From the IMG/VR virus record IMGVR_UViG_3300030118_005494: a stretch of 20,000 bases of DNA. One strand, written 5' to 3'. The position numbers were made by a program, and so were the translations under genes. Source of the DNA: an uncultured virus (IMG/VR IMGVR_UViG_3300030118_005494) (Duplodnaviria; Heunggongvirae; Uroviricota; Caudoviricetes). The notes under the pieces are model-generated. The model saw nothing but the letters and a program-made list of their open reading frames with translations. It was not told the origin of the DNA and made no database searches. Shown here one piece after another: positions 2,211-15,454 of the stretch (positions are counted from its first letter, which is position 1; each line of letters opens with the position of its first letter).

Positions 2211-2228
2211 AACGGGGAGGAATAAAAC

Positions 2229-2822
2229 TTATTCTTTATCTTTGCGTGCTACAGCTTGTGCATCAGAATAAGAACCAGATGAATACCGGGCGTTGGTGCC
2301 AGTAAGAAGTTTTTCTTGGTTAGCTTGAATGGCTTCATTAATAAAATCATCAACGTTATCCAGTAATTGCGCTTTATGTACAAACATTTCAACCTTAGTA
2401 CGAACTGCGTTATAGAAAATACGTAATGCATCTAATTGGTCTTGTTTTGGTGTGTCTTTTGCATACACTACATGTTTTTTTAAAACACCAAATGGACCTA
2501 GTACATCGTTAATCGGGTCTACAAGTAAAGTTTGAGTAATGTAAGATAGGTTATCTTTGAATTCACCTTGAATTGTAGATGCATACCCCATCAGATAAAA
2601 CATGAAATCGCCCAACTCTTCGGTAACGTTTTTGGAATCATTGTTATAAATTGCAGCCTGTAATTCATTAAACTCATCAAACAAGCCTGTAAGCATATGC
2701 CAACGATTAATAAGTTCTGGTGTCATTTGGCTTAATAGTTCTTCTGGGTCTTTAATTAAGACAAGAGGAACATCATGTGTATACTGTGCTAAAGCAAGTA
2801 CTAAGTTTTGTTTTGTGATCAT
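2229..2822 (-). CDS. mazG: MazG-like nucleotide pyrophosphohydrolase
   Basis: DEFNEL...EELGDFMFY acidic helices; C-terminal N.EKL..RY.SG.YSD.QA.AR.DK typical of phage MazG-like proteins. Confidence 0.75.
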   Translation of the reverse strand: MITKQNLVLALAQYTHDVPLVLIKDPEELLSQMTPELINRWHMLTGLFDEFNELQAAIYNNDSKNVTEELGDFMFYLMGYASTIQGEFKDNLSYITQTLLVDPINDVLGPFGVLKKHVVYAKDTPKQDQLDALRIFYNAVRTKVEMFVHKAQLLDNVDDFINEAIQANQEKLLTGTNARYSSGSYSDAQAVARKDKE

Positions 2823-2833
2823 TATATTTCCTA

Positions 2834-3283
2834 TTAAAATTCTTGGTAAACACCAAGTGCTGTGAAAATTTCCATAACCTGATCATTAGTCAAATTATGT
2901 CCATTAATTGATGCAATCCATCCAGCCCCAATAAGTCTACCTTTATTCATGGTATCCAATACAGTTTTGTGATGACTGTTAAATGTGTCTATCATTTCGG
3001 TATGGGTTTTAGGGTCTTTGTTTTGGATTGCTTCAAATTCTAGGGAATGTTTAAAAGTACCGTCAGAACGTTTCTTTACACTAAACCCAGCCATATACAT
3101 CATCCATTGATATCGGAGTGTAGTTAATGCTTCATAGTCTTTTAGGCTAATTTGGGTTATTACTTGTTTTTTATGTAAATGATATAAAACTACTTTTTGG
3201 TTATACATTCCATTTGTAGCAAATACTGCTACTTTGTTACGCATTGATGCTCTGAAAAGTAATGCTTGTTTTTGTTTGTTCAT
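2834..3283 (-). CDS. hypothetical protein (149 aa)
   Basis: Packed ORF in the operon with a GGA RBS. Confidence 0.7.
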   Translation of the reverse strand: MNKQKQALLFRASMRNKVAVFATNGMYNQKVVLYHLHKKQVITQISLKDYEALTTLRYQWMMYMAGFSVKKRSDGTFKHSLEFEAIQNKDPKTHTEMIDTFNSHHKTVLDTMNKGRLIGAGWIASINGHNLTNDQVMEIFTALGVYQEF

Positions 3284-3286
3284 AGT

Positions 3287-3520
3287 TTATCCAAATGATT
3301 TACGGGCATCAGCTTCATTATCAAATAAACGACAACCCCAAACAGTGAGTTTTTTGCTGTCATATAACGAACGCATATCACTATCTTTCATTACAGCATC
3401 ACAAGCTTTTCCAAAGTTTAATGCAGTAGCACTACCTAAGAATTTTGCAGTATCTGTGTTGCCTGTGATGTTGTATCCTTCCATCCAAACATTAAATTGT
3501 TTTGGCTTCTTTTTTGGCAT
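3287..3520 (-). CDS. small phage hypothetical protein (77 aa)
   Basis: AAAGGA RBS; VWMEGY and WGCRLFDNEADARKSFG motifs recalled from other phage small proteins. Confidence 0.75.
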   Translation of the reverse strand: MPKKKPKQFNVWMEGYNITGNTDTAKFLGSATALNFGKACDAVMKDSDMRSLYDSKKLTVWGCRLFDNEADARKSFG

Positions 3521-3531
3521 TACGATTCCTT

Positions 3532-3762
3532 TTATTTTTTAATAGCTAGTTTGACACCTTCAAGAGTTTTCCAGAACAAGATCAAAACCATAGTGGAAAT
3601 AATGACAATGCCCATGAAGACCCAACCTACAACCAAGAAAGAAATTCTAGCCCAACGTTTTTGGAGAATAGTAAAATCATTTTTGTATTCTTGGATAAGG
3701 ATAGAATTTAAAACAAAGTTAACTACAACAATAGCGAGTATTGAAAGTATTTCATTTAGCAT
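3532..3762 (-). CDS. small membrane protein
   Basis: Two hydrophobic segments; overlaps the HNH stop codon. Confidence 0.65.
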   Translation of the reverse strand: MLNEILSILAIVVVNFVLNSILIQEYKNDFTILQKRWARISFLVVGWVFMGIVIISTMVLILFWKTLEGVKLAIKK

Positions 3763-4057
3763 TACGATTTCTTTTATCCCTCAGTATGCAATTTTTCTTA
3801 TGTGTAACTGGGTTTAGGTGATTAGGGTTAACACAAGCCCGATTACAGCAAGAATGGTCTAACTCACGATTCTCAATATTACCCCCAACAAGAATGGTGT
3901 AAATGGCTCTGTGCGCCATATTACGGACACCTTTGTACCAAGTACGCTGATAACCATTAGGAGTTGGATCTTTGCCTTCAAATAGCCAACAGGAGGTTTC
4001 AGGGCATACTTTAATTTTTTCTTGCATATGTGGGGGCAATACTGAGATATCGTACAT
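3752..4057 (-). CDS. HNH endonuclease
   Basis: CWLF...GY...AHR...LDHSCCNRACVNPNHLNPVTHKKN, an HNH_3-type signature. Confidence 0.9.
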   Translation of the reverse strand: MYDISVLPPHMQEKIKVCPETSCWLFEGKDPTPNGYQRTWYKGVRNMAHRAIYTILVGGNIENRELDHSCCNRACVNPNHLNPVTHKKNCILRDKRNRNAK

Positions 4058-5145
4058 TATTTTAGCTTACCTTGTCTGTATTGGTCTGTAACATCTTCTA
4101 CGACTTTGTAACTACATACTCGGACTTTTGTATGATCATAATCAGAAGGGATTGATACAAAGTCTTGAGGTCGAACAATGCATTTAATTACACGAATACG
4201 AGTATCAGCACCATATGAACTTAGGTAAGATGGTGCACATACATGTAAACCTCTAGAGCATGTTTGATCAGGGTCTTCGACTACAGAACTGCGAAGCATT
4301 GTTACAGTTTCACCTACACCGTTGAAAATAGTATTTGAATAGAGATCCATAAAATCATTGTCTACTTTTTTATAGCATACAACGTTACCTTTATCAGTTA
4401 TTTCAATGTGGGCTTTTTTAATAAAAGTCCAAATTCTTTCATAAATATTGAGTGAAGGGCATGCTTGAATATTTTCAAAGAACTTCAATAAATGCTCAAA
4501 AGGTTCTTCCCGGGTAAATGCATCTATAAGGTCATCTGCAAAATTATTTTTAATTGGCGTATCATTCATAAAGAATTGGTCATTCTCAATTCTAAAATTG
4601 CCTTTTAAATACTTCTGTGCAGCAATTTTAATTGAAGCCAGTTCTAGTGCTTTTTCATTGTTACCTAGGGTCAATTCTAAAGCAATGTCTTGGTACTTAG
4701 GATGTTCTTTGGTTACAGCTAAAGAATCACCATCATCCAGTAAGAGGGTGATAAAAGAACCGGGGTCAATTGTCGCAGAAATAATAGTACGCTTTTCATT
4801 TGTACTTTCTGTTGGTGTATCTGCCTTATCCGCAACTTCTGGTTCAGCAGTTTCAGGCTTTTTTACAGGAGCTTTAGGTCTAGATTTTTTAGGAGTTTTA
4901 TCAGAGTCAGCTAAAACTTTCTTAGGATCTTTCTTGGGTTTATCTTTTGTTATAGTAGTGGCAGTAGTTTTATTTTCTTTGTGTAATCCTACGTTACTTA
5001 AAATCCTGTTTAAAGTTCTAGGGCTAATATCAAACTCTGCAGCTAGTTTTGTTTTGTTAACAGCACCATCTTTGAGTCTTTTTTCATACTCAGTAATTAT
5101 ACTGTTGTTACGCTTTTCTACTTGGTTGGGTGTTAATTTTGTCAT
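4057..5145 (-). CDS. rIIB: rIIB-like protein with N-terminal HTH
   Basis: HTH (KTKLAAEFDISPRTLNRIL), low-complexity linker, then IEITDKGNVVCYKKV, TCSRGLHVC and DFVSIPSDY..K.RVC.Y motifs. Confidence 0.9.
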   Translation of the reverse strand: MTKLTPNQVEKRNNSIITEYEKRLKDGAVNKTKLAAEFDISPRTLNRILSNVGLHKENKTTATTITKDKPKKDPKKVLADSDKTPKKSRPKAPVKKPETAEPEVADKADTPTESTNEKRTIISATIDPGSFITLLLDDGDSLAVTKEHPKYQDIALELTLGNNEKALELASIKIAAQKYLKGNFRIENDQFFMNDTPIKNNFADDLIDAFTREEPFEHLLKFFENIQACPSLNIYERIWTFIKKAHIEITDKGNVVCYKKVDNDFMDLYSNTIFNGVGETVTMLRSSVVEDPDQTCSRGLHVCAPSYLSSYGADTRIRVIKCIVRPQDFVSIPSDYDHTKVRVCSYKVVEDVTDQYRQGKLK

Positions 5146-7423
5146 ACTTGTTTGCCTTATGAATTAAAATAAATAGTCGTTGTAGCCTGCTTAGTGTATT
5201 ACGACTAAGCTTAATTCCTAAATATTTTGGGTTTTGTAATAAACGTTCTATTTTTGCTAGTTTCTTTGCTAAAGTTCTTGCTACATGTTTAACATAGCTT
5301 AATTCAGATCTTGGAACTTTTGGGATAAAATAATCACAAAAAGGAAGCATTGATATATTTTTATCTTCTTCATGTTCAATCAAGAAATCTGAGTAGTTTC
5401 GTAAAAAGTTAAAAACATTTTTGTACAAATACTCTAATGTTGAGTCATTTACTAACTTATAGATTGTTTTATAGTAATCAGTGTAATTAAAGTATAAACT
5501 ACTTTCGAATACAGAAATCTGTGCTGCTCGTAAATGAAGTTTATAAAGCTTTTTACTTTTTTGTGTTTTATTAGCAAAGTCAGAACCAAGTAAAAAAGAA
5601 TAACGTTTAGATTCTTTTATTTTGTAATACGCAGATGAAGATACAAAAACAAATCTAATATTACTTTTCAATAAAAAGTTTGCTTTTAGAAATACTAAAT
5701 ATTCAAGCATATATGTGAATGTACGTTTGTATGTCACATCTACAAAATAAGTAGTATAATTAGGATCTTCAGATAGTGTACTGAAGAACGCTAGTGTAGT
5801 CTTTCCAATTTCTGTTGTGTGTACTACGCTTGTGTTATCGGAATTACAATAAGCCACATCAAACCATGTTCGTGGTTGTGATGCTTTTACTTTCTGTTGT
5901 ATTTTTTCTTCTTGTTCTTTTGGTAACTTTGGTAAATCAACAACTACTATTTCATCATAATACTTCTGTAATTTACTTTTTAGTTTTTGAACGTTTTCAC
6001 TATCTATAACTAAAAAACCATTTGATCTATGAGAAGCATAGGTAGAAAAAGCAGAATCATAACTAATTTCACCATGGTTTAAAAAATACCCTAATTTATG
6101 TCTCATTTGAGGTTGCTTAACATATATAGTACAAGTTTTATTAGGGCTTGCTATGTGTTTTTCATAGTTAAATTTAAATGTTTTTTCTTTACTTGGATAG
6201 CAAACTGATACATTAAAAAGGTTAGAAACAGTATCTAGTGTACTATTTAATTTACTTCTCCATATTGGAATGAAGTGCACTAGACTAGTTCTCTTTTCTA
6301 GTGCACTCCAAAAAAATGTATAATTTCGTTTAATGTAATCTTTTGTAGTATTACCAAACTTTGTATTGTTTAAATTATCAGTAATAACTGAATACGAATT
6401 TTTTCGGTTAGCCCAAACAAAAGTTAAAATTTCTTTTTTATAGTGTTTTAAAATTTTACTAAGCAAAAGACTTACTACATGGTTAGTTCTTTCACTATAT
6501 TCTAAATTTTCACGATCTGGTTTAATATCTACAGCATCAACAGGAACATCTACGACAAATTGATATATTCCAGAAAGACTTTGAATTGCACTTAATTCTT
6601 CTTTCCATTTTTCTCCATGGTCTGAGTCTAGAGATAAAGGATAAAGTACACATCCCATGCGAATTGCAAAACTAGACTGATAATGGATATTAGCAGAGTA
6701 AAGAGGAAGTGATATTTCTGAAAGCTCTAATTCATTGTCTTGGGTAGGTAGATCAATTTTAACATTTAAGAAAGTTTTAGGGTTTTCCAGAGTATAACGA
6801 TACCTGATATTATCACGACCAAAAACATTAGGTTTTACATCAAATGCGCTTAGTTCTTCTTCAAATGCATTAACAAATTTTTGGATGTTATTTTCTGATA
6901 CAGGAACCTTTACCATTACACCGTTAGGCTCATCTGTTGGACCTTCTTGGAGTAGTTCTAATGGATTTTCATTCTTTTGGATACTGCTTCTGAATGTTCT
7001 ACGAATACCATCTAAATATGTTGTAATGAAATAAACTTCAGTAATTGCAAATGGACTTTTACCTCCAATACCCCAACCACCAATAGAGTTACTTTCAGAG
7101 TTTTTAGATGAGTTGCCTAGCACTGAGTACACTTTAACAACTTGGTCTATATCCATAGAACAGCCATAGTCACGTACTATAAAGTACGGGTCTAATTTAG
7201 TTGGTAGAGTTACATCAAAAGGTTGATCTTGTTTGTTTACTGCAATGTGCGCATCTAAGCAGTTGGTGCATAGTTCACGAACAATTGCATTGATTGGACG
7301 TAAATATAAGCTTTTAGTTAAGATAGTAAAAACTGTATTGTTCTGTTTGGCAGTATAATCCACTTTCATTAAAGGCTTAATGCCGATTGTTTTTACTTGG
7401 CTTTTAGTTAAGTTAAGACGCAT
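5108..7423 (-). CDS. rIIA: rIIA-like protein (N-terminal GHKL/HSP90-like ATPase)
   Basis: LY..PINAIVRELCTNCLDAH, VRDYG, IGGWGIGGKSPFA, TDEPNGV.V.VPV and PDRENLEY motifs; directly upstream of rIIB. Confidence 0.9.
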   Translation of the reverse strand: MRLNLTKSQVKTIGIKPLMKVDYTAKQNNTVFTILTKSLYLRPINAIVRELCTNCLDAHIAVNKQDQPFDVTLPTKLDPYFIVRDYGCSMDIDQVVKVYSVLGNSSKNSESNSIGGWGIGGKSPFAITEVYFITTYLDGIRRTFRSSIQKNENPLELLQEGPTDEPNGVMVKVPVSENNIQKFVNAFEEELSAFDVKPNVFGRDNIRYRYTLENPKTFLNVKIDLPTQDNELELSEISLPLYSANIHYQSSFAIRMGCVLYPLSLDSDHGEKWKEELSAIQSLSGIYQFVVDVPVDAVDIKPDRENLEYSERTNHVVSLLLSKILKHYKKEILTFVWANRKNSYSVITDNLNNTKFGNTTKDYIKRNYTFFWSALEKRTSLVHFIPIWRSKLNSTLDTVSNLFNVSVCYPSKEKTFKFNYEKHIASPNKTCTIYVKQPQMRHKLGYFLNHGEISYDSAFSTYASHRSNGFLVIDSENVQKLKSKLQKYYDEIVVVDLPKLPKEQEEKIQQKVKASQPRTWFDVAYCNSDNTSVVHTTEIGKTTLAFFSTLSEDPNYTTYFVDVTYKRTFTYMLEYLVFLKANFLLKSNIRFVFVSSSAYYKIKESKRYSFLLGSDFANKTQKSKKLYKLHLRAAQISVFESSLYFNYTDYYKTIYKLVNDSTLEYLYKNVFNFLRNYSDFLIEHEEDKNISMLPFCDYFIPKVPRSELSYVKHVARTLAKKLAKIERLLQNPKYLGIKLSRNTLSRLQRLFILIHKANKYDKINTQPSRKA

Positions 7424-8025
7424 TACTTTTCCCCGTATTTTTCTGCTGCGTATGTTGTGTAATGTTCTTGGTATGCTTTTGCATTTTTTACTAGAAAATC
7501 AGAAAGAACTTCTTCGTTATCTACAACCCAAACAGAAGCAAAAGTATGTAGTTCTTTTTGGATCATATAAGTTACATCTTCAATGCTGTAACCAGCAAAG
7601 TCTGAGTAGTAATTAATTAAGTCGAATGCAGCCCCATTTATTGCTTGTTTTATGCTACTGAAGTTAGCGTACACAAAAATATTGTTTGCAATTAAGTACC
7701 GAATAAACATAGGTTGTGCAGCTATTCCTATTGCTTTACCTCGTATTTCTTGTTTCATTCGATATTTTTTATCAAACTTAATACGAATACTTTTATAGAA
7801 GTTAGCCATGGTTTTATAGTCATAATACTCTTCAACTAAAAGTGGGATTGTACTTACTCTGGTTCTGAGGGTTATTGTAATCCCATCAAATAACTTTGTT
7901 TCTGCGTTTGTTCCTACAGGTAATTCTTTAAATAATACCGGAATTTCTTTTACGCTAAAGTAATAACTAATACTTCCTACTACAGCCAGAAATACGGCAA
8001 TAAAAATAAAAATTGAAATAATCAT
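7423..8025 (-). CDS. N-terminally membrane-anchored protein, possibly a divergent SPFH/band-7-like protein
   Basis: Hydrophobic residues 2-23; weak resemblance only (DGITITL, GYSIEDV); GGAG RBS. Confidence 0.55.
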   Translation of the reverse strand: MIISIFIFIAVFLAVVGSISYYFSVKEIPVLFKELPVGTNAETKLFDGITITLRTRVSTIPLLVEEYYDYKTMANFYKSIRIKFDKKYRMKQEIRGKAIGIAAQPMFIRYLIANNIFVYANFSSIKQAINGAAFDLINYYSDFAGYSIEDVTYMIQKELHTFASVWVVDNEEVLSDFLVKNAKAYQEHYTTYAAEKYGEK

Positions 8026-8049
8026 GGTAACTCCATAGGTGAAATAAAA

Positions 8050-8131
8050 TGCACATTAAACTGTAGATAATCATTACGGACGAGAGCATGAACGTAAATT
8101 AAAATTAAGACTATCTACAGATTAATATGCA
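8050..8131 (-). ncRNA. putative structured RNA (sRNA or 5'UTR element) carrying an anti-RBS sequence against RNAP2
   Basis: 23-bp inverted repeat 8050-8072/8109-8131 with 20 Watson-Crick pairs; two of three mismatches are G-U on the minus strand; inner stem 8074-8078/8093-8097; 8078-8088 is the reverse complement of 9261-9271. Confidence 0.55.
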
Positions 8132-8225
8132 CTGGACTATCTAGTTTTAGGGTATAGGGTAAAGTAGCTAAAAATAGCTGTTTTAAGTAAAGTTAGGATA
8201 TTATTTTTAAAAAATAAAATACCAG

Positions 8226-8245
8226 AAAAAGACACCGAAGGTGTC
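8226..8245 (-). terminator. intrinsic terminator after RNAP2
   Basis: Minus strand GACACC-UUC-GGUGUC followed by UUUUU, about 25 nt after the RNAP2 stop. Confidence 0.7.
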
Positions 8246-8270
8246 CTTTCCTGTATATTTTTTATTCAAT

Positions 8271-9260
8271 TTAGCATATATGATATTCAGCTGTTTTCAT
8301 TAGAGTAGATAGTTTAGAAGTTCTCTTTCTAGTTCTTATGAACTTTCCTGAAACTTCTCTTGCTATCGTATCTAATAAGTTCGAATCAGCTAGTTCTTTG
8401 AATATCTTTAAGTAGTGATACCTCAGTTCATTTACTCTATTTGGAAGTACTGCAAAACAGTCATGAATACTTAAGATAGGAAAGTTGCATCGTCTGCGTA
8501 ATTCTCTAACTACATATCCGTCTATAGACTGTACTATGTTTGCTGGCATTGGCTTGTTGTACGTACTGGTAGTATTGTCAGTGAATTGATATGTGAAAGT
8601 AGTACCTTCTAATTCATTGATTTCTACCTTAGTTTGGAACTTATCCAGTACAGGTACATGTGCAACATGACCATCAGGTAATGTCCATTGGTGGTACAGT
8701 GCTTTACTGTTCCAGAATGACAGCATTAAGTACATAAGGTCTGTAGCCCCGGGAAACTCTTCAGCAAGGGTTGTATAGAACATTTCAAGTTCATGTGTAT
8801 CCTTGCCAAATACCTTCTGAGGTTCTGCTGTAGAAGCATAAAAGAATGTCATTGTAGGTGGTTTGATCACACTTCGTTCAAGGCGCTTACCTACAAATTT
8901 AGACATTGTTTCAGCCATATTGTTGTAAGCACACTGACACCCATTAACGTTAATGAGATTGACATTCTCAGCAGTGTCAGGACATCCAGACAGTACAGCT
9001 AATATTTGCAACCCAGAAGCTGTAGCATCGAACATAACAGGTATGTTACAAGGTTCACCTTTATACGCTGCATCTATGGCTCTAACAGTTTTAGCTGCAA
9101 GTATTGCTTCTTTCCCTGTTTCCAGTATTTCTTCTCTGTTTATGTTGTTGTGATATACAGCTTGACCTATCTCTAATCTTTCATCCCAATCTTCTTTATC
9201 GAAGCCTAAATTATTGGCTAAGTTAATGAATAAATACTCTAAACCTGTAAATTGGCGCAT
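8271..9260 (-). CDS. RNAP2: N4-like RNA polymerase II subunit 2 (gp16-like; catalytic half of the split T7-type RNAP)
   Basis: Motif A FDATASGLQ, motif B R..IK..TMT.FY, ANIVQSIDG and motif C IHDCF; N-terminal FTGLEYL.I..AN. Confidence 0.95.
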   Translation of the reverse strand: MRQFTGLEYLFINLANNLGFDKEDWDERLEIGQAVYHNNINREEILETGKEAILAAKTVRAIDAAYKGEPCNIPVMFDATASGLQILAVLSGCPDTAENVNLINVNGCQCAYNNMAETMSKFVGKRLERSVIKPPTMTFFYASTAEPQKVFGKDTHELEMFYTTLAEEFPGATDLMYLMLSFWNSKALYHQWTLPDGHVAHVPVLDKFQTKVEINELEGTTFTYQFTDNTTSTYNKPMPANIVQSIDGYVVRELRRRCNFPILSIHDCFAVLPNRVNELRYHYLKIFKELADSNLLDTIAREVSGKFIRTRKRTSKLSTLMKTAEYHIC

Positions 9261-9284
9261 TGCTCTCGTCCTTATTTCAGATAT

Positions 9285-9306
9285 AAAAAAGCCCCAATTA
9301 AGGGGC
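9285..9306 (-). terminator. intrinsic terminator between the RNAP1 unit and RNAP2
   Basis: Minus strand GCCCC-UUAAUU-GGGGC followed by UUUUUU. Confidence 0.7.
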
Positions 9307-9326
9307 GTATTCAGTGTTGATACTAC

Positions 9327-9494
9327 CTAGTTCATCATTTTCCAATCTTGGACAAATGAAGCTGTCTGTGCTCGGGTTAAGTTAAACTTAGTTCGAACTG
9401 TGTCGTATACTGTGATGCTGTCATATTTTCCATCATCCTTAAGTTGACTAATGAACTCCATAACTGCTTTTTTCACATCTTTAGTTTTAGACAC
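9327..9494 (-). CDS. small hypothetical protein (55 aa), missing from the ORF track
   Basis: GTG start with AAAGGAG RBS overlapping the RNAP1 end: MSKTKDVKKAVMEFISQLKDDGKYDSITVYDTVRTKFNLTRAQTASFVQDWKMMN. Confidence 0.75.
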   Translation of the reverse strand: MSKTKDVKKAVMEFISQLKDDGKYDSITVYDTVRTKFNLTRAQTASFVQDWKMMN

Positions 9495-10401
9495 TTGTTA
9501 TTTCTCCTTTTGCAAAGTTAATAAGTGCTTTCTTATATTCAGTTGATTGTATATTGATATGATGTCCTTTAGAGTACATACGCCCTCTACTATCATACCC
9601 GTAACGCAAATAGAATCTGTTACCTGCGTCTAGTATTTCGTTATACACTTGTTTGCTTGTATTAACCAATAGTTCAAATTGTCGTTTCTTTTCAATTGTA
9701 TCTAGTGGCTTATTACTTTTCTCTGGAATTTTAAGTACCTCAGTATCCAGAGTTAAGGCTTGCTGTGCATATAAATTCAGCGCATCTACAGCTATGTTAG
9801 GTGTATTTCTGGCTAAATGATGTCCTAACATACATGAGCCATCTACGTTGCTGTAAGAGCCATCTGTGGAGACATCTTGATATGCCATTGGCGGTATTAG
9901 AGAAGGTGGAACATACATAAAACTATTTATCAGTTCAATTGTATCTTCATCCAATTCCATACAGGCAGTAACATACATTTCATTGTACTCGTTAAAGTCA
10001 ATATCCACTAAATCTGCTTCTGCCATTAAGACTATCAATTCAGCTGCTGTAGTGACTTTATCTCGGGTAGTGAAATCAGCAAACAAAGTATTATTGAACC
10101 ACCCCATAGTAGCTCCACATACAGCTTGAATTGACATTGTTTCATTGCTGGCTAATAGCGGGGTTAACACGTATAGAAAGAAATCAGTAACCTTGTTAAG
10201 TTCTAACTTCAGTATGTTTAACCTAGTTCGTTTTGATTCATACCCGGGGTCGTGTTTAACCCATTCCTTAAATGAAATAAATGCTTGCATGAAATGCAAC
10301 CGCATATCCAAATCTTCAAGTAATTCTTTCTCGATTATTTTACGGATATTCTTTTTGGAATATCTGAGTTCTAAATCAAGTTGTTGTTGTAAAGCATTCA
10401 T
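9487..10401 (-). CDS. RNAP1: N4-like RNA polymerase II subunit 1 (gp15-like)
   Basis: Q..LE..YS, YESK..R, FMY.PP..IPP and FYL....DSRGRMY.KG.HIN.Q (DxxGR motif); AAGGAG RBS. Confidence 0.93.
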   Translation of the reverse strand: MNALQQQLDLELRYSKKNIRKIIEKELLEDLDMRLHFMQAFISFKEWVKHDPGYESKRTRLNILKLELNKVTDFFLYVLTPLLASNETMSIQAVCGATMGWFNNTLFADFTTRDKVTTAAELIVLMAEADLVDIDFNEYNEMYVTACMELDEDTIELINSFMYVPPSLIPPMAYQDVSTDGSYSNVDGSCMLGHHLARNTPNIAVDALNLYAQQALTLDTEVLKIPEKSNKPLDTIEKKRQFELLVNTSKQVYNEILDAGNRFYLRYGYDSRGRMYSKGHHINIQSTEYKKALINFAKGEITSV

Positions 10402-10412
10402 ACTATCTCCTT

Positions 10413-10439
10413 AAAAATTAAAAGGCTCCCGAAGGAGCC
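10413..10439 (-). terminator. intrinsic terminator with UUCG tetraloop after the gp2/Drc-like gene
   Basis: Minus strand GGCUCC-UUCG-GGAGCC followed by UUUUAAUUUUU. Confidence 0.8.
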
Positions 10440-10450
10440 AATTAGGTTAT

Positions 10451-10726
10451 TTAAAGTTCGATATCATCAGTTTCAATGAACTGGATAGTTCCAGTTAAAG
10501 TGAATACGTGATCTGGGTCTTGCTCTGCTTTGCGAATCATGGCAGCAGTTGCACGATCAATACCGGTTAAAGGAACACCTTTAGGTAAAGAATGCTCATT
10601 ACCCTGTTTATCTTTAAGACGTGGATTCCAGTATGCAATCACTTCAGGTTGTGAACGATTACCACGAGCAGGAACACGAGATTGCTTTTCAGCTTGAGTT
10701 TGGTTTGATTTCTTTGAAACAGCCAT
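10451..10726 (-). CDS. probable ssDNA-binding RNAP II co-activator (N4 gp2/Drc-like)
   Basis: Sits immediately upstream of RNAP1; basic/polar N-tail, AYWN..L...G.....GVPL core, acidic C-terminus DDIEL; GAGGA RBS. Confidence 0.6.
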   Translation of the reverse strand: MAVSKKSNQTQAEKQSRVPARGNRSQPEVIAYWNPRLKDKQGNEHSLPKGVPLTGIDRATAAMIRKAEQDPDHVFTLTGTIQFIETDDIEL

Positions 10727-10771
10727 AGTTAAGTCCTCATTAACTAAGATTAAGACAACATTGTCACATGT

Positions 10772-10782
10772 GTCCGAAGGAC
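10772..10782 (-). promoter_or_regulatory. virion-RNAP-type hairpin promoter
   Basis: Template (+) strand GTCC-GAA-GGAC upstream of the gp2-like gene; TCAC at the same offset as in the 17289 hairpin. Confidence 0.6.
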
Positions 10783-10852
10783 TTATTAGAGTGCTATCTG
10801 AACAAGTTAAAGTAGGGGTCGAAGAAAGAATTGTGTGCTTTTAAGGCCCAAA

Positions 10853-10865
10853 TGTGCGAAGCACA
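10853..10865 (-). promoter_or_regulatory. virion-RNAP-type hairpin promoter
   Basis: Template CC-CAAA-TGTGC-GAA-GCACA matches the N4 promoter layout (CC, 4 nt, 5-bp stem, GNA triloop). Confidence 0.75.
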
Positions 10866-10877
10866 CAGGGCCATATA

Positions 10878-11381
10878 TCAAAGTTCTAGAGGTGGAAGTT
10901 TGACTTTTTTACAAGCGTACTGGATACGATCAATTTCTCTCCAAGCTCTATCATATTGATTTGAATTAAATGTACCTACTAACTCACCTAGATAGTCAAA
11001 TATATATATAGGTTTACACTCCATATACATTTGACGAATCATATCTAAAGTACCTTTAGATTTACCATCCCATACAGCTACAAGTATGTCAGACATATTT
11101 TGCATCTTAGTATTACGTTGGAATCCAGCTAGTGCATTGTAAGCAACGTTATTACGGTATTTAATAACACAAGGTTCAACAGAAAGATCATTCCATGCAG
11201 CAGGTACTGGTAGTACTTTTACTCCGATAGATTTGGCATAATCTGCAAAAATTGAATCTGCTCCCGGGGCTTCACCTGAAACATTAATCACATCGTCAAA
11301 TTTATCTAAAACAAAATCATAAATCTTCTTAGTAACGCTAATATCTGTAAAGCTACGTCCACCAGCAAATATAATTTTCAT
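10878..11381 (-). CDS. SLOG superfamily protein (YspA/DUF2493-like)
   Basis: IIFAGGRSF, VSGEAPGAD, AGFQRNTKM and VAVWDGKSKGT.DMI motifs. Confidence 0.85.
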   Translation of the reverse strand: MKIIFAGGRSFTDISVTKKIYDFVLDKFDDVINVSGEAPGADSIFADYAKSIGVKVLPVPAAWNDLSVEPCVIKYRNNVAYNALAGFQRNTKMQNMSDILVAVWDGKSKGTLDMIRQMYMECKPIYIFDYLGELVGTFNSNQYDRAWREIDRIQYACKKVKLPPLEL

Positions 11382-11390
11382 GGTATGTCC

Positions 11391-11885
11391 TTAAATTGGG
11401 TCCAATGAATAGATAGTTAAATTAACTTGTGAATTGTCTGCAAATAACGTTTCGATGATTTCAAGAATAATATTCCAATCACCTCGTGCTGATCCTGCAC
11501 CTAACATAGGGCAAGCTAGTTCAATAGGAGCACCTGTTCTATAAGACTCAGCACGCAATCGAGCATTGATGTCGTGAAGACCTTTAAACAAATATCCATA
11601 GTGAACCTGACGTCCATTTGTACTTGGATTCTCTTGACCAAACAGGTTGTAAATTACTTGGTCGTTTCCTACGTTGTAGTGCATGTAGGTACCAAGTAAT
11701 TTCTCTGGGTTATCCATCTTGTCACACACAGCTTGGTATCGCTCTAGACATTGTGGGTAAGCTTGTGCAATTTGTTTTGCTACACCTCCACCCATTACAC
11801 CTCGAACATTACAGCAGTGAACTAGATTGGTTACTTCACCTTTTTGGAATGCTTTAACAATGTCACCTTGGATTAAATCAACCAT
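11391..11885 (-). CDS. macrodomain (ADP-ribose binding/hydrolase) protein, T4 Tk.4-like
   Basis: IQGDI, VHCCN..GVMGGGVA.QI, YNLFGQ and PMLGAG.ARGDW..I motifs. Start moved to ATG 11885, which overlaps the upstream stop. Confidence 0.9.
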   Translation of the reverse strand: MVDLIQGDIVKAFQKGEVTNLVHCCNVRGVMGGGVAKQIAQAYPQCLERYQAVCDKMDNPEKLLGTYMHYNVGNDQVIYNLFGQENPSTNGRQVHYGYLFKGLHDINARLRAESYRTGAPIELACPMLGAGSARGDWNIILEIIETLFADNSQVNLTIYSLDPI

Positions 11886-12030
11886 TAAGACCACCTTCAA
11901 TTACATATGGAGAAATACCAGCAGTTAGAATAGAAACAAATGCAACTAAATACTGAGTTTCTGCTAATGCAATGCCTGCTACTACTGAAAATATAGATAC
12001 AGCCAGTATCGTGAATTTATTTGATTTCAT
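11878..12030 (-). CDS. small membrane protein (50 aa), missing from the ORF track
   Basis: MKSNKFTILAVSIFSVVAGIALAETQYLVAFVSILTAGISPYVIEGGLNG; AAAGGA RBS; fills the gap between neighbours. Confidence 0.7.
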   Translation of the reverse strand: MKSNKFTILAVSIFSVVAGIALAETQYLVAFVSILTAGISPYVIEGGLNG

Positions 12031-12208
12031 GTTTATTTCCTTTGCAGTTTGGGCAGGTATGTTTAGAACCTTCTAAAGAAGTACCCATAACTACCCAACC
12101 TTGATTAGTGAAATTTGAATTAGCTTGTATTACTGATTTCGAAACAGTTCTAGCTTCAGTTTGCTTGCATGTATCACATACAATTCGATAGTTAAGAAAG
12201 TAAGCCAA
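12017..12208 (-). CDS. small zinc-finger protein
   Basis: CDTC...GW...CPNC; TTG start with a GGGGG RBS. Confidence 0.7.
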   Translation of the reverse strand: MAYFLNYRIVCDTCKQTEARTVSKSVIQANSNFTNQGWVVMGTSLEGSKHTCPNCKGNKHEIK

Positions 12209-12209
12209 A

Positions 12210-12425
12210 CTATACCCCCTTTAAAACTTTTTTACATAAAAGTAAAAAAGCAATCAAAATAGCAATACTAAAATGAATCAAAGATAATAAAGGCCAAGAT
12301 ATAAAGCTAACAGTGTTTATTATCTTTGGATACCTACAGTAGTATTTATGTGTTTTTGCCCAACCAACAAAATTAATCCATATACCTAGTAAGTACATGG
12401 CCCAAGCTACATAATAGTAATCCAT
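12210..12425 (-). CDS. small membrane protein
   Basis: Two hydrophobic segments, SWPL motif. Confidence 0.65.
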   Translation of the reverse strand: MDYYYVAWAMYLLGIWINFVGWAKTHKYYCRYPKIINTVSFISWPLLSLIHFSIAILIAFLLLCKKVLKGV

Positions 12426-12685
12426 TACTTATTCCTTAATGCTGTTTGTTCTTCGAGCCAACGAGTAACTGTAGTGAGTACTCTTTCATTGTTTGGTCTG
12501 GCTGCAATCTTAAATGATAGGTCATTGAGTAAGCGTTTTTCTGAAGCTTGAACTAAGTCTTTTACTAAGTCTTTATCATACTTACTCTGGTTTGTTTTAA
12601 CTAACCTTGTTGCTACAGTTATACCGAAGCAAACCCCCACCACAAATGCGGTGAGGATTACAAATTCAATTGAGACAAATTCCAT
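12425..12685 (-). CDS. membrane-anchored hypothetical protein
   Basis: N-terminal hydrophobic segment; AAGGA RBS. Confidence 0.7.
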   Translation of the reverse strand: MEFVSIEFVILTAFVVGVCFGITVATRLVKTNQSKYDKDLVKDLVQASEKRLLNDLSFKIAARPNNERVLTTVTRWLEEQTALRNK

Positions 12686-12694
12686 AATAATTCC

Positions 12695-13039
12695 TTATAT
12701 GTCTAGTTTTGCTTGAGCGTATTTACAGATATGTTTAACACGGTCAAAGCCACGTAAGTTAAGAATAGCTCTACGAATTGGGTCTGTTTCATGCCAATTC
12801 ATAAGGCGATGGGTTTTAAGGCTGTAGATCTGTTTAGTGCGAGTAATCAGATAAGAGATACCTTCGTAGTGAACGATAGTAGCCATATTCTTTTTACTGG
12901 CTGGGTCTACAATAAAGTTACGTCTAGCAATCTGAAGTTTATGCCCAGATTCAGTAACAATAAGTAATAACCCTTTAGGACGTACAGCAAGACAAAGACA
13001 CCATTGGCCCTTGTATTTACCATATTTACCTACTTGCAT
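12695..13039 (-). CDS. basic hypothetical protein (114 aa)
   Basis: AAGGAG RBS; packed ORF. Confidence 0.75.
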   Translation of the reverse strand: MQVGKYGKYKGQWCLCLAVRPKGLLLIVTESGHKLQIARRNFIVDPASKKNMATIVHYEGISYLITRTKQIYSLKTHRLMNWHETDPIRRAILNLRGFDRVKHICKYAQAKLDI

Positions 13040-13054
13040 AAAAGTCTCCTTATA

Positions 13055-13426
13055 CTAATTTTCTCCTTCGTCCGAAGGACTTACAAAGTATTCTTCAGGT
13101 GAGTTTTCTAAAATATTCGCAATTCCATTGAAAGAAGTTCCACGGTCATTAAGATCAATTAAGGAAAGACCTTCATTCATAGGTTCACCTTTACCGGTTC
13201 TTAGTCCTACCCAATGCATTACCTCTTTTTGTGCGTACAAAGAACCTCCTTCAATAATGCTATGTGGCCCTGTTGCAAGGTTTTTGTCTGTATTTTTTTC
13301 ATACACTTTACATGCAACACCTAAGCAACAAAAAGCCCCAGAAGGTCTTTGGAGTGCATGATACCCTTGGATATATTCACCACTTCTAAGAGCAGCAATC
13401 CATTTCTTTTGGTTTTCAGTAAGCAT
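13055..13426 (-). CDS. conserved phage hypothetical protein
   Basis: KWIAALRSGEY.QG...CCLGVAC...L..LND.G.SF..IA pattern recalled from many phages; AGGAG RBS. Confidence 0.8.
   Translation of the reverse strand: MLTENQKKWIAALRSGEYIQGYHALQRPSGAFCCLGVACKVYEKNTDKNLATGPHSIIEGGSLYAQKEVMHWVGLRTGKGEPMNEGLSLIDLNDRGTSFNGIANILENSPEEYFVSPSDEGEN
13070..13080 (-). promoter_or_regulatory. possible intragenic virion-RNAP-type hairpin promoter
   Basis: GTCC-GAA-GGAC, identical to 10772-10782, about 30 nt upstream of the start at 13039. Confidence 0.45.
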
Positions 13427-13622
13427 AAATATCTCCTGTGCGCCCCGTAGAGCGCATCTAATGATTCTGGTAGTGTAATTGTATGGACTTGAGGTAGAAC
13501 GTTCGACTGTGGCTCACTGTGGAGCCAGAATCATAGTTCTAGTTCATCCAATTCGGCGAATTCTGTATCAGAGTACTGTATTTAAGTATACTTTGATGTA
13601 TTAAACACATAAGTAGTTCATA

Positions 13623-13796
13623 TTAACGTTTTCCTGTGGTTACAATTCGATTATTAAGATATTCATTCCAAGCCAACTTATTGCCATTAGCGTACATACG
13701 TGCAAGTAATGGGAATTCAGCTGGGTCAGGTGAGTAGAGTTGAGATTCAGATAGGTGTTTGTAGAGTTCAAGGCATTGCTGTTGGTACTTAGTCAT
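13623..13796 (-). CDS. small hypothetical protein (57 aa), missing from the ORF track
   Basis: MTKYQQQCLELYKHLSESQLYSPDPAEFPLLARMYANGNKLAWNEYLNNRIVTTGKR; ATG overlaps the upstream stop. Confidence 0.6.
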   Translation of the reverse strand: MTKYQQQCLELYKHLSESQLYSPDPAEFPLLARMYANGNKLAWNEYLNNRIVTTGKR

Positions 13797-14091
13797 GGAC
13801 TTGTACTAACATTTGAATATCAGTTCCTGATATATCGCTACCAAGTAATTCCTCACAAGCGCATATTTCAGAAACAATAAAGCCTAATTTAGGCATTCCT
13901 AATGCTGAAATCACTACTGCACTATTATCACGTAGCCAGTATGTAAGTCCTTGTCCTTTAAAGATGCATAAAGACACATTTGAAACAGGATGACCTAGTT
14001 TACGTAGATGGTCTTCTAATTGGGAATTGTCTACATGAAACTCATAAGTATCTAACCCAATATGAAATGTTAAAGTTGCTGATTTACTCAT
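13789..14091 (-). CDS. hypothetical protein (100 aa)
   Basis: GAGGA RBS; coupled overlap with the upstream gene. Confidence 0.7.
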   Translation of the reverse strand: MSKSATLTFHIGLDTYEFHVDNSQLEDHLRKLGHPVSNVSLCIFKGQGLTYWLRDNSAVVISALGMPKLGFIVSEICACEELLGSDISGTDIQMLVQVHD

Positions 14092-14386
14092 TTGCGTCTT
14101 CCTCGATAAGAATTAAAATTTTGTTTGCCAGTTCTTTACGTAGTTGCAGTTGCTCACCTTCATACAAAGTATTTTGGTGTTTATGCTCTAAATAAGTATT
14201 TTCATCTGGAAAACATTTAGAAGGATGTACTCTGTAATAATACTGTTTAAATACTCTGTAAGTGTTATGACCAACCTGTGCAACTATGTTAGAACAAAGA
14301 CCACAATTAGATTTTAAAATAACTTTTGTATGGTCTGCTACAAATAGACATAGCCAGTTATATAATTCACGTTGTTCTTTATCCAT
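14084..14386 (-). CDS. hypothetical protein (100 aa)
   Basis: TAAGGAG RBS; GLC and LY.GEQ..LR..LA motifs. Confidence 0.75.
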   Translation of the reverse strand: MDKEQRELYNWLCLFVADHTKVILKSNCGLCSNIVAQVGHNTYRVFKQYYYRVHPSKCFPDENTYLEHKHQNTLYEGEQLQLRKELANKILILIEEDANE

Positions 14387-14618
14387 GGGTGTTACTCCTT
14401 ATAGTAATAGTAGTGATACTTCTATTTAATATACTTACAAACTTCTTAGCATTTACCCACCGTTCATAAGCTACACCATGTCGCATGGTGATAGACCTAG
14501 GCCAAGTACATCTCCATACTCCATTACAAAAATATATGTGAGGTTTTCCCCAATTAATGTTTCGGGAACTAAAAGTAACTAATCTACGTATATTGCTAGT
14601 TTTAGTTACATTATTCAT
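14379..14618 (-). CDS. hypothetical protein, paralogue of 16357..16557
   Basis: GKPHIYFCNGVWRC...WVNAKKFV; TAAGGAG RBS. Confidence 0.75.
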   Translation of the reverse strand: MNNVTKTSNIRRLVTFSSRNINWGKPHIYFCNGVWRCTWPRSITMRHGVAYERWVNAKKFVSILNRSITTITIRSNTHG

Positions 14619-14634
14619 GGGTGTTACTCCTTAT
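14384..14634. repeat. 19-bp perfect direct repeat (14384-14402 and 14616-14634)
   Basis: Two copies of CATGGGTGTTACTCCTTAT, which is RBS plus start codon on the minus strand. Confidence 0.85.
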
Positions 14635-15031
14635 GTAGCTTGTCTGCAATTTCTTTACCGATATAATCAGTCAAATCAGTACCTTCCACAAAGTGATTAT
14701 AAATACCATGATCACCATTAAATTCAGTGTCTCTATGCGTAATGGTATTTAAAGCTTGATAGAGTGCTTCACACTCTTTAGTCTTTTCTTCTGCTATTGC
14801 CTGAACTAAGTTTTGGTTAGCCATTATCGCGTCTAACGCATGTATTACATTTGGGGCTGAGTGTCTGCTTGAGTGTACTAATTGCTGTACTTGGCTAGAT
14901 AGTTCACACAGTAATTCATGCTCTCTATCTTGTTTAGGTGTTTCACATAATTCATGCTTACGGATTGCTGCATTTAAAGCTCTGTGTAATACAGTTAATT
15001 GTTCACGATCATAGATTGAAATAATAAACAT
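14624..15031 (-). CDS. hypothetical protein (135 aa)
   Basis: AAGGAG RBS; predicted helical composition. Confidence 0.7.
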   Translation of the reverse strand: MFIISIYDREQLTVLHRALNAAIRKHELCETPKQDREHELLCELSSQVQQLVHSSRHSAPNVIHALDAIMANQNLVQAIAEEKTKECEALYQALNTITHRDTEFNGDHGIYNHFVEGTDLTDYIGKEIADKLHKE

Positions 15032-15041
15032 TAGTTTCTCC

Positions 15042-15239
15042 TTATTCTGGGTATCTCTTTCTAGTGTTATATGCAGCTTTTGCTATCACAGTAGTTACGT
15101 GTTGTAGGCTACGCATTAAACGTGCCCTAAATTCAGCTGGATACGCTTTTGTACCTAGAATCTGTATTACTTCTGCTTCTGGTAGTACTACACAAGATAA
15201 ATCACATGGAATAAGCTTGTCAGCTTTACCTTGAGACAT
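15042..15239 (-). CDS. hypothetical protein (65 aa)
   Basis: AAGGA RBS. Confidence 0.7.
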   Translation of the reverse strand: MSQGKADKLIPCDLSCVVLPEAEVIQILGTKAYPAEFRARLMRSLQHVTTVIAKAAYNTRKRYPE

Positions 15240-15263
15240 ATTATTTCCTTATACCTAAACACC

Positions 15264-15285
15264 AAAAAAGCCCCCGAAGGGGCTT
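15264..15285 (-). terminator. intrinsic terminator with UUCG tetraloop
   Basis: Minus strand GCCCC-UUCG-GGGGC followed by UUUUUU. Confidence 0.85.
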
Positions 15286-15301
15286 CTTAAAGTTAGTTAA
15301 T

Positions 15302-15412: not shown

Positions 15413-15454
15413 AATAAGTCCTCCAAAATAGTATGTTTAATCTGTTTTACTTCT

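What the first reader, a model, noticed from the sequence alone, without database searches (positions are those of the whole stretch)
8050..9271. Candidate antisense RNA stem-loop targeting the ribosome-binding site of the phage's own RNA polymerase II subunit 2
Seen: the gap between RNAP2 and the first downstream gene holds a 23-bp inverted repeat (8050-8072/8109-8131) plus an inner 5-bp stem closing a 14-nt loop. The mismatches are C-A, A-A and A-C on the + strand but G-U, U-U and U-G on the minus strand, so the fold is favoured in the sense RNA. The apex on that RNA reads CAUGCUCUCGUCC. It is perfectly complementary over 11 nt (8078-8088 vs 9261-9271) to the RNAP2 leader GGACGAGAGCA and extends onto the AUG with one bulge. 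This GC-rich leader differs from the AGGAGATA-type leaders of other genes, so the match is specific. Known: N4 RNAP II (gp15/gp16 plus gp2) transcribes middle genes, and loop-displayed anti-SD sequences are how many antisense RNAs act. Inference: a middle transcript, or read-through past the 8226-8245 terminator, represses RNAP2 translation and gives negative feedback on RNAP II. I know of no such RNA circuit described for N4-like phages. A second GACTATCTA copy at 8136-8144 could pair with the left arm and allow an alternative fold.
Basis: partly seen in the sequence, partly recalled or inferred. Interest (0 to 1): 0.9.

Follow-up and report, generated by a model that had tools for sequence, protein, structure and literature searches.

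The report
Leader hairpin complementary to polymerase start
An uncultured marine N4-like phage has a large, well-conserved RNA hairpin just downstream of its RNA polymerase II large-subunit gene, and the hairpin tip could pair with that gene's ribosome-binding site, which suggests a self-limiting switch that is not yet proven.

Summary
A 23-bp inverted repeat (8050-8072/8109-8131) carries a 5-bp inner stem and a 14-nt apical loop. It folds better as minus (sense) RNA (-31.3 vs -24.1 kcal/mol). Its loop is exactly complementary over 11 nt to the SD-to-AUG leader of RNAP2 (gp16-like, 8271-9260). The match is unusual: the duplex is -23.8 kcal/mol, and only 2-3 of 1500 loop shuffles reach that against any of 39 leaders.

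The hairpin lies after the RNAP2 terminator (8223-8253) and after a promoter-like module conserved in distant relatives. It therefore sits in the 5' leader of the next operon (a 200-aa ORFan, rIIA, rIIB), so terminator read-through is not required. Strain variants about 2-5% diverged have no change in the hairpin, against about 6 expected.

No relative carries the hairpin, and 66 distant relatives show no equivalent complementarity. Co-variation therefore could not be tested, and repression is not shown.

Best reading (about 0.4): a leader-RNA loop that occludes the RNAP2 ribosome-binding site. Main rival (about 0.35): a purely cis-acting leader structure with a chance match.

The parts
8050..8131 (-). 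82-nt stem-loop: a 23-bp outer stem (20 Watson-Crick pairs, 2 G.U, 1 U.U in sense RNA), an 11-nt 5'-side internal loop, a 5-bp inner stem and a 14-nt apical loop
   Evidence: (I1). No change in variants X15 and X20.
8079..8092 (-). Apical loop 5'-UUCAUGCUCUCGUC-3'. The anti-leader 11-mer UGCUCUCGUCC spans 8088-8078, and its last C lies in the inner stem.
   Evidence: (I8). Predicted unpaired probability is 0.83-1.0 at most loop positions; opening energy 2.5 kcal/mol.
8074..8097 (-). Inner stem-loop: UUACG (8097-8093) pairs with CGUAA (8078-8074)
9258..9274 (-). RNAP2 translation-initiation region UAAGGACGAGAGCAAUG (SD AAGGA, an unusual CGAGAGCA spacer, AUG at 9260-9258). This is the proposed target.
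   Evidence: Target opening energy 3.6 kcal/mol. No change in variant X15.
8271..9260 (-). RNAP II large subunit (N4 gp16-like), 329 aa
   Evidence: phrog_2051 at 2.2e-96. PF00940 at 4e-17. 475 phage records match, all below 60% identity.
8223..8253 (-). Intrinsic-terminator-like hairpin (14 pairs, UUCG loop) followed by a U-rich tail, downstream of RNAP2
8144..8225 (-). Promoter-like conserved module. Motif 1 is around 8203-8180 (..ATATCCTAACTTTACTTAAAAC). Motif 2 is at 8161-8144 (TACCCTATACCCTAAAAC). Inferred to be the first middle promoter.
   Evidence: Alignment A2 with 6 relatives has 12 invariant columns. Motif 2 is identical in L005 and is enriched 100-250 nt after the RNAP2 stop. No sigma-70-like site in 7900-9500.
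8042..8049 (-). U-rich tract UUUUAUUU directly 3' of the hairpin. Together they could form a leader attenuator or terminator.
   Evidence: Read. Not called by the terminator scan.
8135..8143 (+). Second copy of GACTATCTA (the first is at 8109-8117). In sense RNA it could pair with 8064-8072 as an alternative 9-bp helix.
   Evidence: The pairing is read from the sequence.
7423..8025 (-). First gene downstream: a 200-aa ORFan with a hydrophobic N-terminus. SD GGAG is at 8034-8031.
   Evidence: No PHROG or Pfam hit. Only 2 database proteins match, both 100% identical. No homologue in 90 related loci.
9291..9306 (-). Terminator-like hairpin GCCCC-UUAAUU-GGGGC plus U6, about 17 nt upstream of the RNAP2 SD
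9487..10401 (-). RNAP II small subunit (N4 gp15-like), 304 aa
   Evidence: phrog_2166 at 4.8e-59. tblastn finds it upstream of RNAP2 in 87 loci.

Best explanation
The element is an RNA stem-loop in the 5' leader of the first operon downstream of the RNAP II genes. That operon holds the 200-aa ORFan, rIIA and rIIB.

Shown:
- The fold is strong and is better in the sense RNA.
- The element lies after the RNAP2 terminator and after a conserved promoter-like module.
- It is invariant in diverged strains.
- Its exposed apical loop is complementary to the SD-spacer-AUG region of RNAP2.

Inferred: when RNAP II begins to transcribe this operon, the leader accumulates, either full-length or as a short RNA ending at the hairpin and its U-tract. 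The loop nucleates pairing with the early RNAP2 mRNA. The weak 5-bp inner stem opens, and the 11-bp duplex (extendable to 13-16 bp) covers the ribosome-binding site. Further synthesis of the catalytic subunit is then reduced. This would be a negative feedback, or early-to-middle shut-off. A cis role of the same hairpin on its own operon (attenuation, processing or stability) is compatible with this and is not excluded.
For: - Structure: -31.3 kcal/mol, z -6.3, 0 of 200 shuffles. The antisense strand is weaker at -24.1, because 2 of the 3 mismatches are G.U only in the sense RNA.
- Specificity: loop against 39 leaders gives RNAP2 -24.4 and the next best -18.0 and -17.8. RNAP2 is also the best of 3947 sense-strand windows (mean -8.95, sd 3.35).
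- Shuffles: 2 of 1500 and 3 of 1500 reach the observed energy against any leader. P(k>=11) is 0.0043 for the inner stem-loop.
- The RNAP2 leader against 507 other 300-nt windows of the window: 0 reach 11 nt.
- Energetics: core duplex -20.2, with opening costs of 2.5 (loop) and 3.6 (target) kcal/mol, so about -14 net.
- Position: terminator 8223-8253, then the conserved module, then the hairpin, then SD and AUG of the next gene.
- In an RNA-library run, one 8990-nt contig covers 7900-8144. Hairpin and downstream gene are therefore on one contig. The library may contain DNA, and there is no strand information.
- Constraint: variant X15 has 24 of its 26 RNAP2 differences at third codon positions (7.3% of 330). 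It has 2 differences in the 245-nt intergenic region (P about 3e-6) and 0 in the 82-nt hairpin (6.0 expected, P 0.0026). X20 has 0 differences in 8026-8159 (6.4 expected).
Against: - There is no direct evidence of pairing or repression.
- The hairpin is confined to this lineage. A covariance-model search found nothing in 75 other sources, and the arm pattern found nothing in IMG/VR. There is therefore no co-variation.
- 66 distinct relatives (33-45% RNAP2 identity) show no enrichment of leader complementarity downstream (median block-rank 0.57; 4 of 66 at or below 0.1). The circuit is not a conserved trait of the clade.
- Less strict nulls give P 0.014-0.024.
- A second site at about 9610-9620 reaches -21.6 kcal/mol.
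- Invariance in close strains does not single out the loop (36 nt: 2.6 expected, P 0.07; the 11+11 nt: P 0.20).
- An 11-bp helix inside a closed 14-nt loop is sterically strained unless the inner stem opens (inference).
Confidence: 0.4

Rival explanations
1. The hairpin is a purely cis-acting leader structure, and the loop-leader match is a coincidence. It controls only its own operon. It could act as a conditional terminator or attenuator together with the UUUUAUUU tract, yielding a short leader RNA. It could be an RNase III-type processing site, since it has about 23 bp of dsRNA. Or it could set the stability of the ORFan/rIIA/rIIB mRNA.
For: - It lies in a 5' leader, 25 nt before the start codon and directly followed by a U-rich tract.
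- Hairpin-plus-U-run elements directly upstream of ribosome-binding sites are common in this window and in relatives.
- In virulent Pseudomonas phages, 42 termination sites lie in 5' UTRs and 29 leader-derived ncRNA candidates were reported (PMC10914365, passages).
- Strong sequence constraint fits any functional RNA.
- Relatives show no conserved anti-leader principle.
- 166 reverse-complement 11-mer pairs exist in the window.
Against: - The match is rare against ribosome-binding regions (2-3 of 1500 by energy; 0.0043 by k-mer). It sits exactly in the exposed apical loop and covers exactly SD to AUG of the neighbouring gene.
- The terminator scan does not call this hairpin (AU-rich stem, 36-nt loop region).
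- A plain stabiliser or terminator does not need a 14-nt loop or total loop invariance.
Confidence: 0.35
2. The element works at the DNA level. The palindrome, or the 11-14-bp sequence present in inverted orientation at both ends of the RNAP2 gene (8075-8088 and 9261-9274), is a protein-binding site, a cruciform or a recombination site. Examples would be an operator for a phage regulator, or a structure used by the ssDNA-dependent transcription machinery.
For: - The two copies bracket RNAP2, its terminator and the promoter-like module (I8).
- N4-type polymerases use single-stranded or hairpin DNA (PMC4496689, section 6; PMC9163698, passages).
- Nucleotide invariance fits a DNA site equally well.
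Against: - The two G.U-compatible mismatches favour RNA of the sense strand.
- The geometry differs from vRNAP promoters (5-7-bp stem, 3-nt loop) and from LUZ7 middle-promoter hairpins (stem of 6 bp or more, 3-4-nt loop) (PMC9163698, passages).
- No joints or inversions appear in 4 runs.
- No further copies of the 11-mer or of the arms exist in the 20-kb window.
Confidence: 0.12
3. The element is an evolutionary scar. A lineage-specific insertion or inverted duplication copied about 16 nt of the RNAP2 leader into the next leader, and it has no function of its own.
For: - On the + strand, the loop reads like the leader including its ATG (TACGGACGAGAGCA-TG against TAAGGACGAGAGCAATG).
- In relative L005, motif 2 is followed directly by the RBS of the next gene, as if the hairpin were an insertion in this lineage.
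- The hairpin is unique to this phage.
Against: - Purifying selection: 0 changes in 82 nt against 6.0 expected.
- Similarity does not extend beyond the 14-16-nt core.
- There are no other copies and no target-site duplication (read).
Confidence: 0.08

Closest known systems
Loop-displayed antisense RNAs that occlude a ribosome-binding site (CopA/CopT of plasmid R1, Sok/hok, IS10 RNA-OUT/RNA-IN). Recalled, not from a call.
   Same: A stable stem presents an unpaired loop whose sequence is complementary to the SD/AUG region of the target. A YUNR-like UUCA begins the loop (read).
   Different: Those regulators are transcribed from the strand opposite their target and are fully complementary. Here the regulator would be part of the sense-strand leader of a different operon, 1.2 kb downstream, with only 11-16 nt of complementarity. 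No experiment supports it.
5'UTR-derived ncRNA candidates made by premature termination in virulent Pseudomonas phages (PMC10914365, passages seen)
   Same: A promoter, then a structured element inside the 5' UTR, then a gene. Both short and read-through forms are possible.
   Different: Those were defined by mapped 5' and 3' ends, and none were mapped here. No target was assigned to them. They are not N4-like phages.
Trans-acting bacterial and phage sRNAs that block translation by pairing at the RBS (PMC5861419, abstract seen in the listing)
   Same: Short imperfect-to-perfect pairing across SD and AUG. The net predicted energy (about -14 kcal/mol) is in the range I recall for such pairs.
   Different: The seed is in the apical loop of a very long hairpin within an mRNA leader. 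The host and any chaperone are unknown.
Hairpin promoters of N4-like phages: vRNAP early promoters, and LUZ7 middle promoters (PMC9163698 passages; PMC4496689)
   Same: An inverted repeat in the early/middle region of an N4-like genome.
   Different: Those have 4-7-bp stems and 3-4-nt loops upstream of the start site. This one has a 23-bp stem and a 36-nt interior, and lies downstream of the promoter-like module.
RNase III processing hairpins between phage T7 genes (recalled)
   Same: About 20 bp or more of intercistronic dsRNA with an internal loop.
   Different: No cleavage data exist here. T7 sites have no known trans target.

Membership tests
Anti-RBS (antisense or kissing-loop) RNA regulator | Stable stem presenting an unpaired loop in the transcribed strand | tested here: met
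   Sense-strand MFE -31.3, z -6.3. Loop unpaired probability mostly 0.83-1.0. These are predictions only.
Anti-RBS (antisense or kissing-loop) RNA regulator | Specific complementarity to the target's SD/start region | tested here: met
   11 nt exact, 14 nt at 93%. Best of 39 leaders. 2-3 of 1500 shuffles reach the observed energy.
Anti-RBS (antisense or kissing-loop) RNA regulator | Regulator RNA is made, on the right strand, when the target mRNA is present | tested here: inconclusive
   4 RNA-library runs of one study hold the stretch. A contig of one such run covers the hairpin plus the downstream gene. Contigs give no strand, ends or timing, and DNA may be present in the library.
Anti-RBS (antisense or kissing-loop) RNA regulator | Loop and target co-vary in relatives | tested here: inconclusive
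   No relative has the hairpin. Close variants have no change at either site. 66 distant relatives show no analogous match.
Anti-RBS (antisense or kissing-loop) RNA regulator | Pairing lowers target translation | not testable with these tools
   Needs a reporter, toeprinting or compensatory mutants.
5'UTR premature-termination ncRNA or attenuator | Transcription start upstream, and a terminator inside the 5' UTR | tested here: inconclusive
   A promoter-like module lies upstream. The hairpin is followed by UUUUAUUU, but the terminator scan does not call it. No mapped ends.
Intrinsic terminator (scan criteria) | G+C-rich stem, loop of 3-8 nt, T-run | tested here: not met
   Only 8223-8253 and 9291-9306 are called on the minus strand in 7900-9500.
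N4 vRNAP early-promoter hairpin or LUZ7 middle-promoter hairpin | Short stem (4-7 bp) with a 3-4-nt loop, 13-15 nt upstream of the start site | tested here: not met
   23-bp stem with 36 nt between the arms. Criteria taken from PMC9163698 passages.
Any Rfam family | Match at gathering score | tested here: not met
   0 matches at gathering score in the window. The only hairpin match is at E = 1 to a miRNA precursor, 19.9 bits against 90 required.
MITE or other repeated mobile hairpin | Multiple copies in this or other genomes | tested here: not met
   Only the two arms themselves match within 0 mismatches (6 matches at up to 2 mismatches against 3.8 expected). 0 matches in IMG/VR. 0 covariance-model hits in 75 other sources.
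RNase III substrate | About 20 bp or more of dsRNA, and cleavage by RNase III | not testable with these tools
   The length criterion is met by prediction. Cleavage is not testable here.

The most novel reading that the evidence does not exclude
The leader of the first RNAP II-transcribed operon carries a kissing-type loop that pairs with the ribosome-binding site of the RNAP II catalytic-subunit mRNA. It would thereby shut off further polymerase synthesis. This would be an RNA-only early-to-middle feedback switch in an N4-like phage, built into an mRNA leader rather than carried by a dedicated sRNA gene.
Probability: 0.35. Interest if true: 0.7.

Novelty: new variant of a known kind. Interest (0 to 1): 0.5.

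Why it matters
N4-like phages time their genes with three RNA polymerases, and the known controls are proteins and DNA structures. If the pairing is real, it would be an RNA-level control of RNAP II dosage. The papers I read do not describe such a control. The N4 polymerase review (section 6 plus passages), the LUZ7 paper and the Drc paper (passages) report only putative sRNAs and antisense transcripts against late genes. Three literature searches gave no such circuit in their listings.

It would also be an example of an mRNA leader acting in trans on a neighbouring gene in a virulent phage. Apart from the pairing, the work locates a conserved promoter-like module after RNAP2 in marine relatives. 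That is useful because middle promoters of N4-like phages are poorly defined.

Tried and rejected
Relatives
- megablast of 7400-9500 against phage records: no match.
- Single-protein scan of IMG/VR: none confirmed.
- Metagenome scan: only a 100% identical contig.
- Species genomes: 10 loci, 24-41% identity.
- No whole genome is held, and the contig behind L081 is not held.
- Relatives at 64% identity exist only as proteins from Logan/ENA.
- A MetaClust member starts TRA-M, which fits the leader codons but gives no nucleotides.

RNA evidence
- In RNA-library run X13 no contig covers 8145-8247, the stretch between the terminator and the hairpin. Depths differ (21-49 over RNAP2, 89 downstream).
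- This would fit a transcript start near 8144-8152. It comes from one study and from contigs only, so I do not count it as evidence.

Other analyses
- RNAcofold of leader plus target: it cannot represent loop-target pairing with the stem intact, so it is uninformative.
- A PWM of motif 1 built from 5 relatives gave no window hit scoring 12 or more. The module rests on the MAFFT alignment and on motif 2.
- Sigma-70 scan: 0 sites.
- Rfam: nothing. tRNA: none.
- Earlier findings of this scan: none.

Ideas rejected
- MITE or repeated element: no other copies.
- A 40-aa ORF starting at the AUG in the loop (7967-8089): no SD, and it is out of frame with the next gene.
- The 4-codon + strand ORF after the leader-like sequence: too short.
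- A bipartite match adding 8035-8047 with 9272-9284 (I16): not recovered by gapped local alignment, and it is sterically incompatible with an intact stem.
- L052/L053 have a 10-nt leader match, but it is the arm and loop of a CCCCTTAATTGGGG terminator hairpin, not an analogue.
Full report
**Setting.** All genes in 120-18254 are on the minus strand. In the direction of transcription the locus reads as follows.
- RNAP II small subunit: 9487-10401, phrog_2166 at 4.8e-59.
- A 55-aa ORF: 9327-9494.
- A terminator-like hairpin: 9291-9306.
- RNAP II large subunit 'RNAP2': 8271-9260, 329 aa, phrog_2051 at 2.2e-96, PF00940.
- A 245-nt gap.
- A 200-aa ORFan: 7423-8025.
- rIIA (5108-7423) and rIIB (4057-5145).

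The phage is a distant, AT-rich (34.5% G+C) marine member of the N4-like group.
- The best phage-record matches to RNAP2 are below 60% identity, in 475 records.
- Its own protein cluster is seen on 54 contigs, among them Tara and JGI sources.
- About 330 aa is the normal RNAP2 length in this clade, so the gene is not truncated.

**The observation.** The inverted repeat, the inner stem, the 14-nt loop and the 11-nt exact complementarity to the RNAP2 leader are all present.
- The sense (minus) RNA folds at -31.3 kcal/mol (z -6.3). The opposite strand folds at -24.1 (z -4.9).
- The difference arises because two of the three mismatches are G.U only in the sense RNA.
- Two small corrections apply. 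The second GACTATCTA copy is at 8135-8143. The terminator stem is 8223-8253.

**Is the match more than chance?** Reverse-complement 11-mers are common in the window as a whole (166 pairs), so the question has to be narrower.
- Exact matching of the loop against the 39 gene leaders (-25..+5), P(k>=11):
  - 0.0043 for shuffles of the 24-nt inner stem-loop;
  - 0.024 for shuffles of the whole AU-rich 36-nt interior;
  - 0.0137 for natural 36-mers of the window, a null inflated by terminator arms that lie inside leaders.
- By duplex energy, which credits the G+C-rich match, only 2 of 1500 and 3 of 1500 shuffles reach the observed -23.8 kcal/mol.
- RNAP2 is the best of 39 leaders (-24.4; next -18.0 and -17.8). 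It is also the best of 3947 sense-strand windows, although an unrelated site near 9610-9620 reaches -21.6.
- The RNAP2 leader finds no 11-nt partner in 507 other 300-nt windows.
- The loop is predicted to be largely unpaired. Opening costs are 2.5 kcal/mol (loop) and 3.6 kcal/mol (target) against a -20.2 core duplex.
That is suggestive, not conclusive.

**Where the hairpin sits.**
- Downstream of RNAP2 there is a strong terminator-like hairpin with a U-rich tail.
- Next comes an approximately 80-nt stretch (8225-8144) that aligns with the region after the RNAP2 terminator in six relatives. Their RNAP2 is only 39-43% identical (A2: 12 invariant columns, 61% mean column identity).
- Its second motif, TACCCTATACCCTAAA, is identical in L005.
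- The pattern A[CT]CCTAT[AG] lies 100-250 nt after the RNAP2 stop in the window, L006/L007, L027, L057, L036 and L037. The background rate is 0.08 per kb.
- No sigma-70-like site is present.
- Papers state that N4 RNAP II uses a short AT-rich promoter (-7 to +2; PMC4496689, section 6) with two consensus motifs (PMC9163698, passage).
- I therefore infer that this module is the first middle promoter. The hairpin would then be in the 5' leader of the ORFan/rIIA/rIIB operon, starting about 15-20 nt after motif 2 and ending 25 nt before the start codon.
- The hairpin is directly followed by UUUUAUUU. It could therefore also act as a leader attenuator of the kind that gives 5'UTR-derived ncRNAs in other virulent phages (PMC10914365, passages). 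The terminator scan does not call it.

**Sequencing runs.**
- 20 of the 24 listed runs hold the stretch, from 7 studies. Four of them are RNA libraries of one study.
- In the RNA-library run that I laid, one 8990-nt contig covers 7900-8144, which includes the hairpin and the downstream gene.
- Contigs show neither strand nor ends, and the library may contain DNA.
- The lack of cover over 8145-8247 is recorded under things tried, not as evidence.

**Selection.**
- Variant X15 differs at 26 sites in RNAP2, 24 of them at third codon positions (7.3% of 330).
- X15 differs at only 2 of 245 intergenic sites (P about 3e-6) and at none of the 82 hairpin sites (6.0 expected, P 0.0026).
- The more diverged X20 has no change in 8026-8159 (6.4 expected).
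- The hairpin and its flanks are therefore under purifying selection at the nucleotide level, which argues against an inert scar.
- This does not single out the loop (P 0.07) or the loop-target pair (P 0.20).

**Relatives.** No relative holds the element.
- The arm pattern has no match in IMG/VR.
- A covariance model of the hairpin finds only the window itself in 517,609 bases from 76 sources.
- The gene content after RNAP2 is not conserved. The ORFan and rIIA are found in 0 of 90 loci, and the ORFan has no homologues.
- In 66 distinct relatives, the RNAP2 leader is no more complementary to the 300 nt after the gene than to other parts of the locus (median block-rank 0.57; 4 of 66 at or below 0.1). 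The window scores z -5.5 with 0 of 20 blocks as good.
The putative circuit is at most a lineage-specific invention.

**Verdict.** The element is real, functional in some way, and most likely acts as sense-strand RNA.
- Anti-RBS feedback on RNAP2 (0.4). This is the only hypothesis that explains why the exposed loop matches exactly SD to AUG of the neighbouring gene. I rank it first.
- A cis-only leader structure with a chance match (0.35).
- A DNA-level site (0.12).
- A functionless scar (0.08).

Pairing, repression and transcript ends are all inferred, not shown.

Noticed in passing
window 8144-8225 (-); L005 5215-5310, L002 4040-4135, L003 2708-2800, L036 4095-4175, L001 4050-4130, L039 4068-4150: A bipartite module (..CTAAACC.ATA.ACTAAC.TTT.AAAA.. 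then ..ACTAT..ACCCTATACCC..) directly after the RNAP2 terminator. It is conserved among marine relatives with only about 40% RNAP2 identity. It is a candidate RNAP II middle promoter.
   Followed up: partly
window 10853-10865 and 17924-17936 (+ strand = template strand): Two 5-bp-stem, 3-nt-loop hairpins (TGTGC-GAA-GCACA and TATGC-GAA-GCATA) lie in intergenic regions upstream of minus-strand genes. Their shape is that of N4 virion-RNAP early promoters (shape criteria from PMC9163698 passages).
   Followed up: no
window 9291-9306; L006, L040, L052, L059, L062, L065 intergenic regions: Terminator-like hairpins with the same CTTAATTG loop recur across relatives, often directly upstream of a ribosome-binding site. 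RNAP2 itself lies between two terminators, so its expression needs read-through of 9291-9306.
   Followed up: no
window, + strand CCGAAG sites at 1413, 8235, 10429, 10774, 15274, 16593, 16968, 17293, 17580: Many intergenic hairpins carry a C(UUCG)G tetraloop on the sense strand. This looks like the phage's standard terminator type.
   Followed up: no
window 15302-15412 (-): An unlisted 36-aa, very acidic ORF (MFDYDELLEEVGVLEQAEELQLEACEYEELLDEVVL) with a GGAGG ribosome-binding site, inside what looked like a 215-nt gap.
   Followed up: no
L002 4000-4295 and L003 2669-2960: A leader of about 290 nt after the promoter-like module, with several conserved strong hairpins (-83 to -86 kcal/mol), shared by two relatives. 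It may be a structured RNA of its own.
   Followed up: no
window 7900-9400, run X15: A DNA run labelled with a single organism (not a metagenome) holds a variant about 2% diverged at a depth of about 90-260. This may be a lead to a host or a culture.
   Followed up: no
window 8035-8047 vs 9272-9284: A second, co-linear 13-nt complementarity (85%) between the sequence just 3' of the hairpin and the RNAP2 leader just 5' of the 11-mer (I16). It is not significant on gapped alignment.
   Followed up: partly
window 8152 and 8027: The only two intergenic differences in variant X15 fall right after motif 2 (8152, sense C to U) and at -2 of the ORFan start codon (8027).
   Followed up: no
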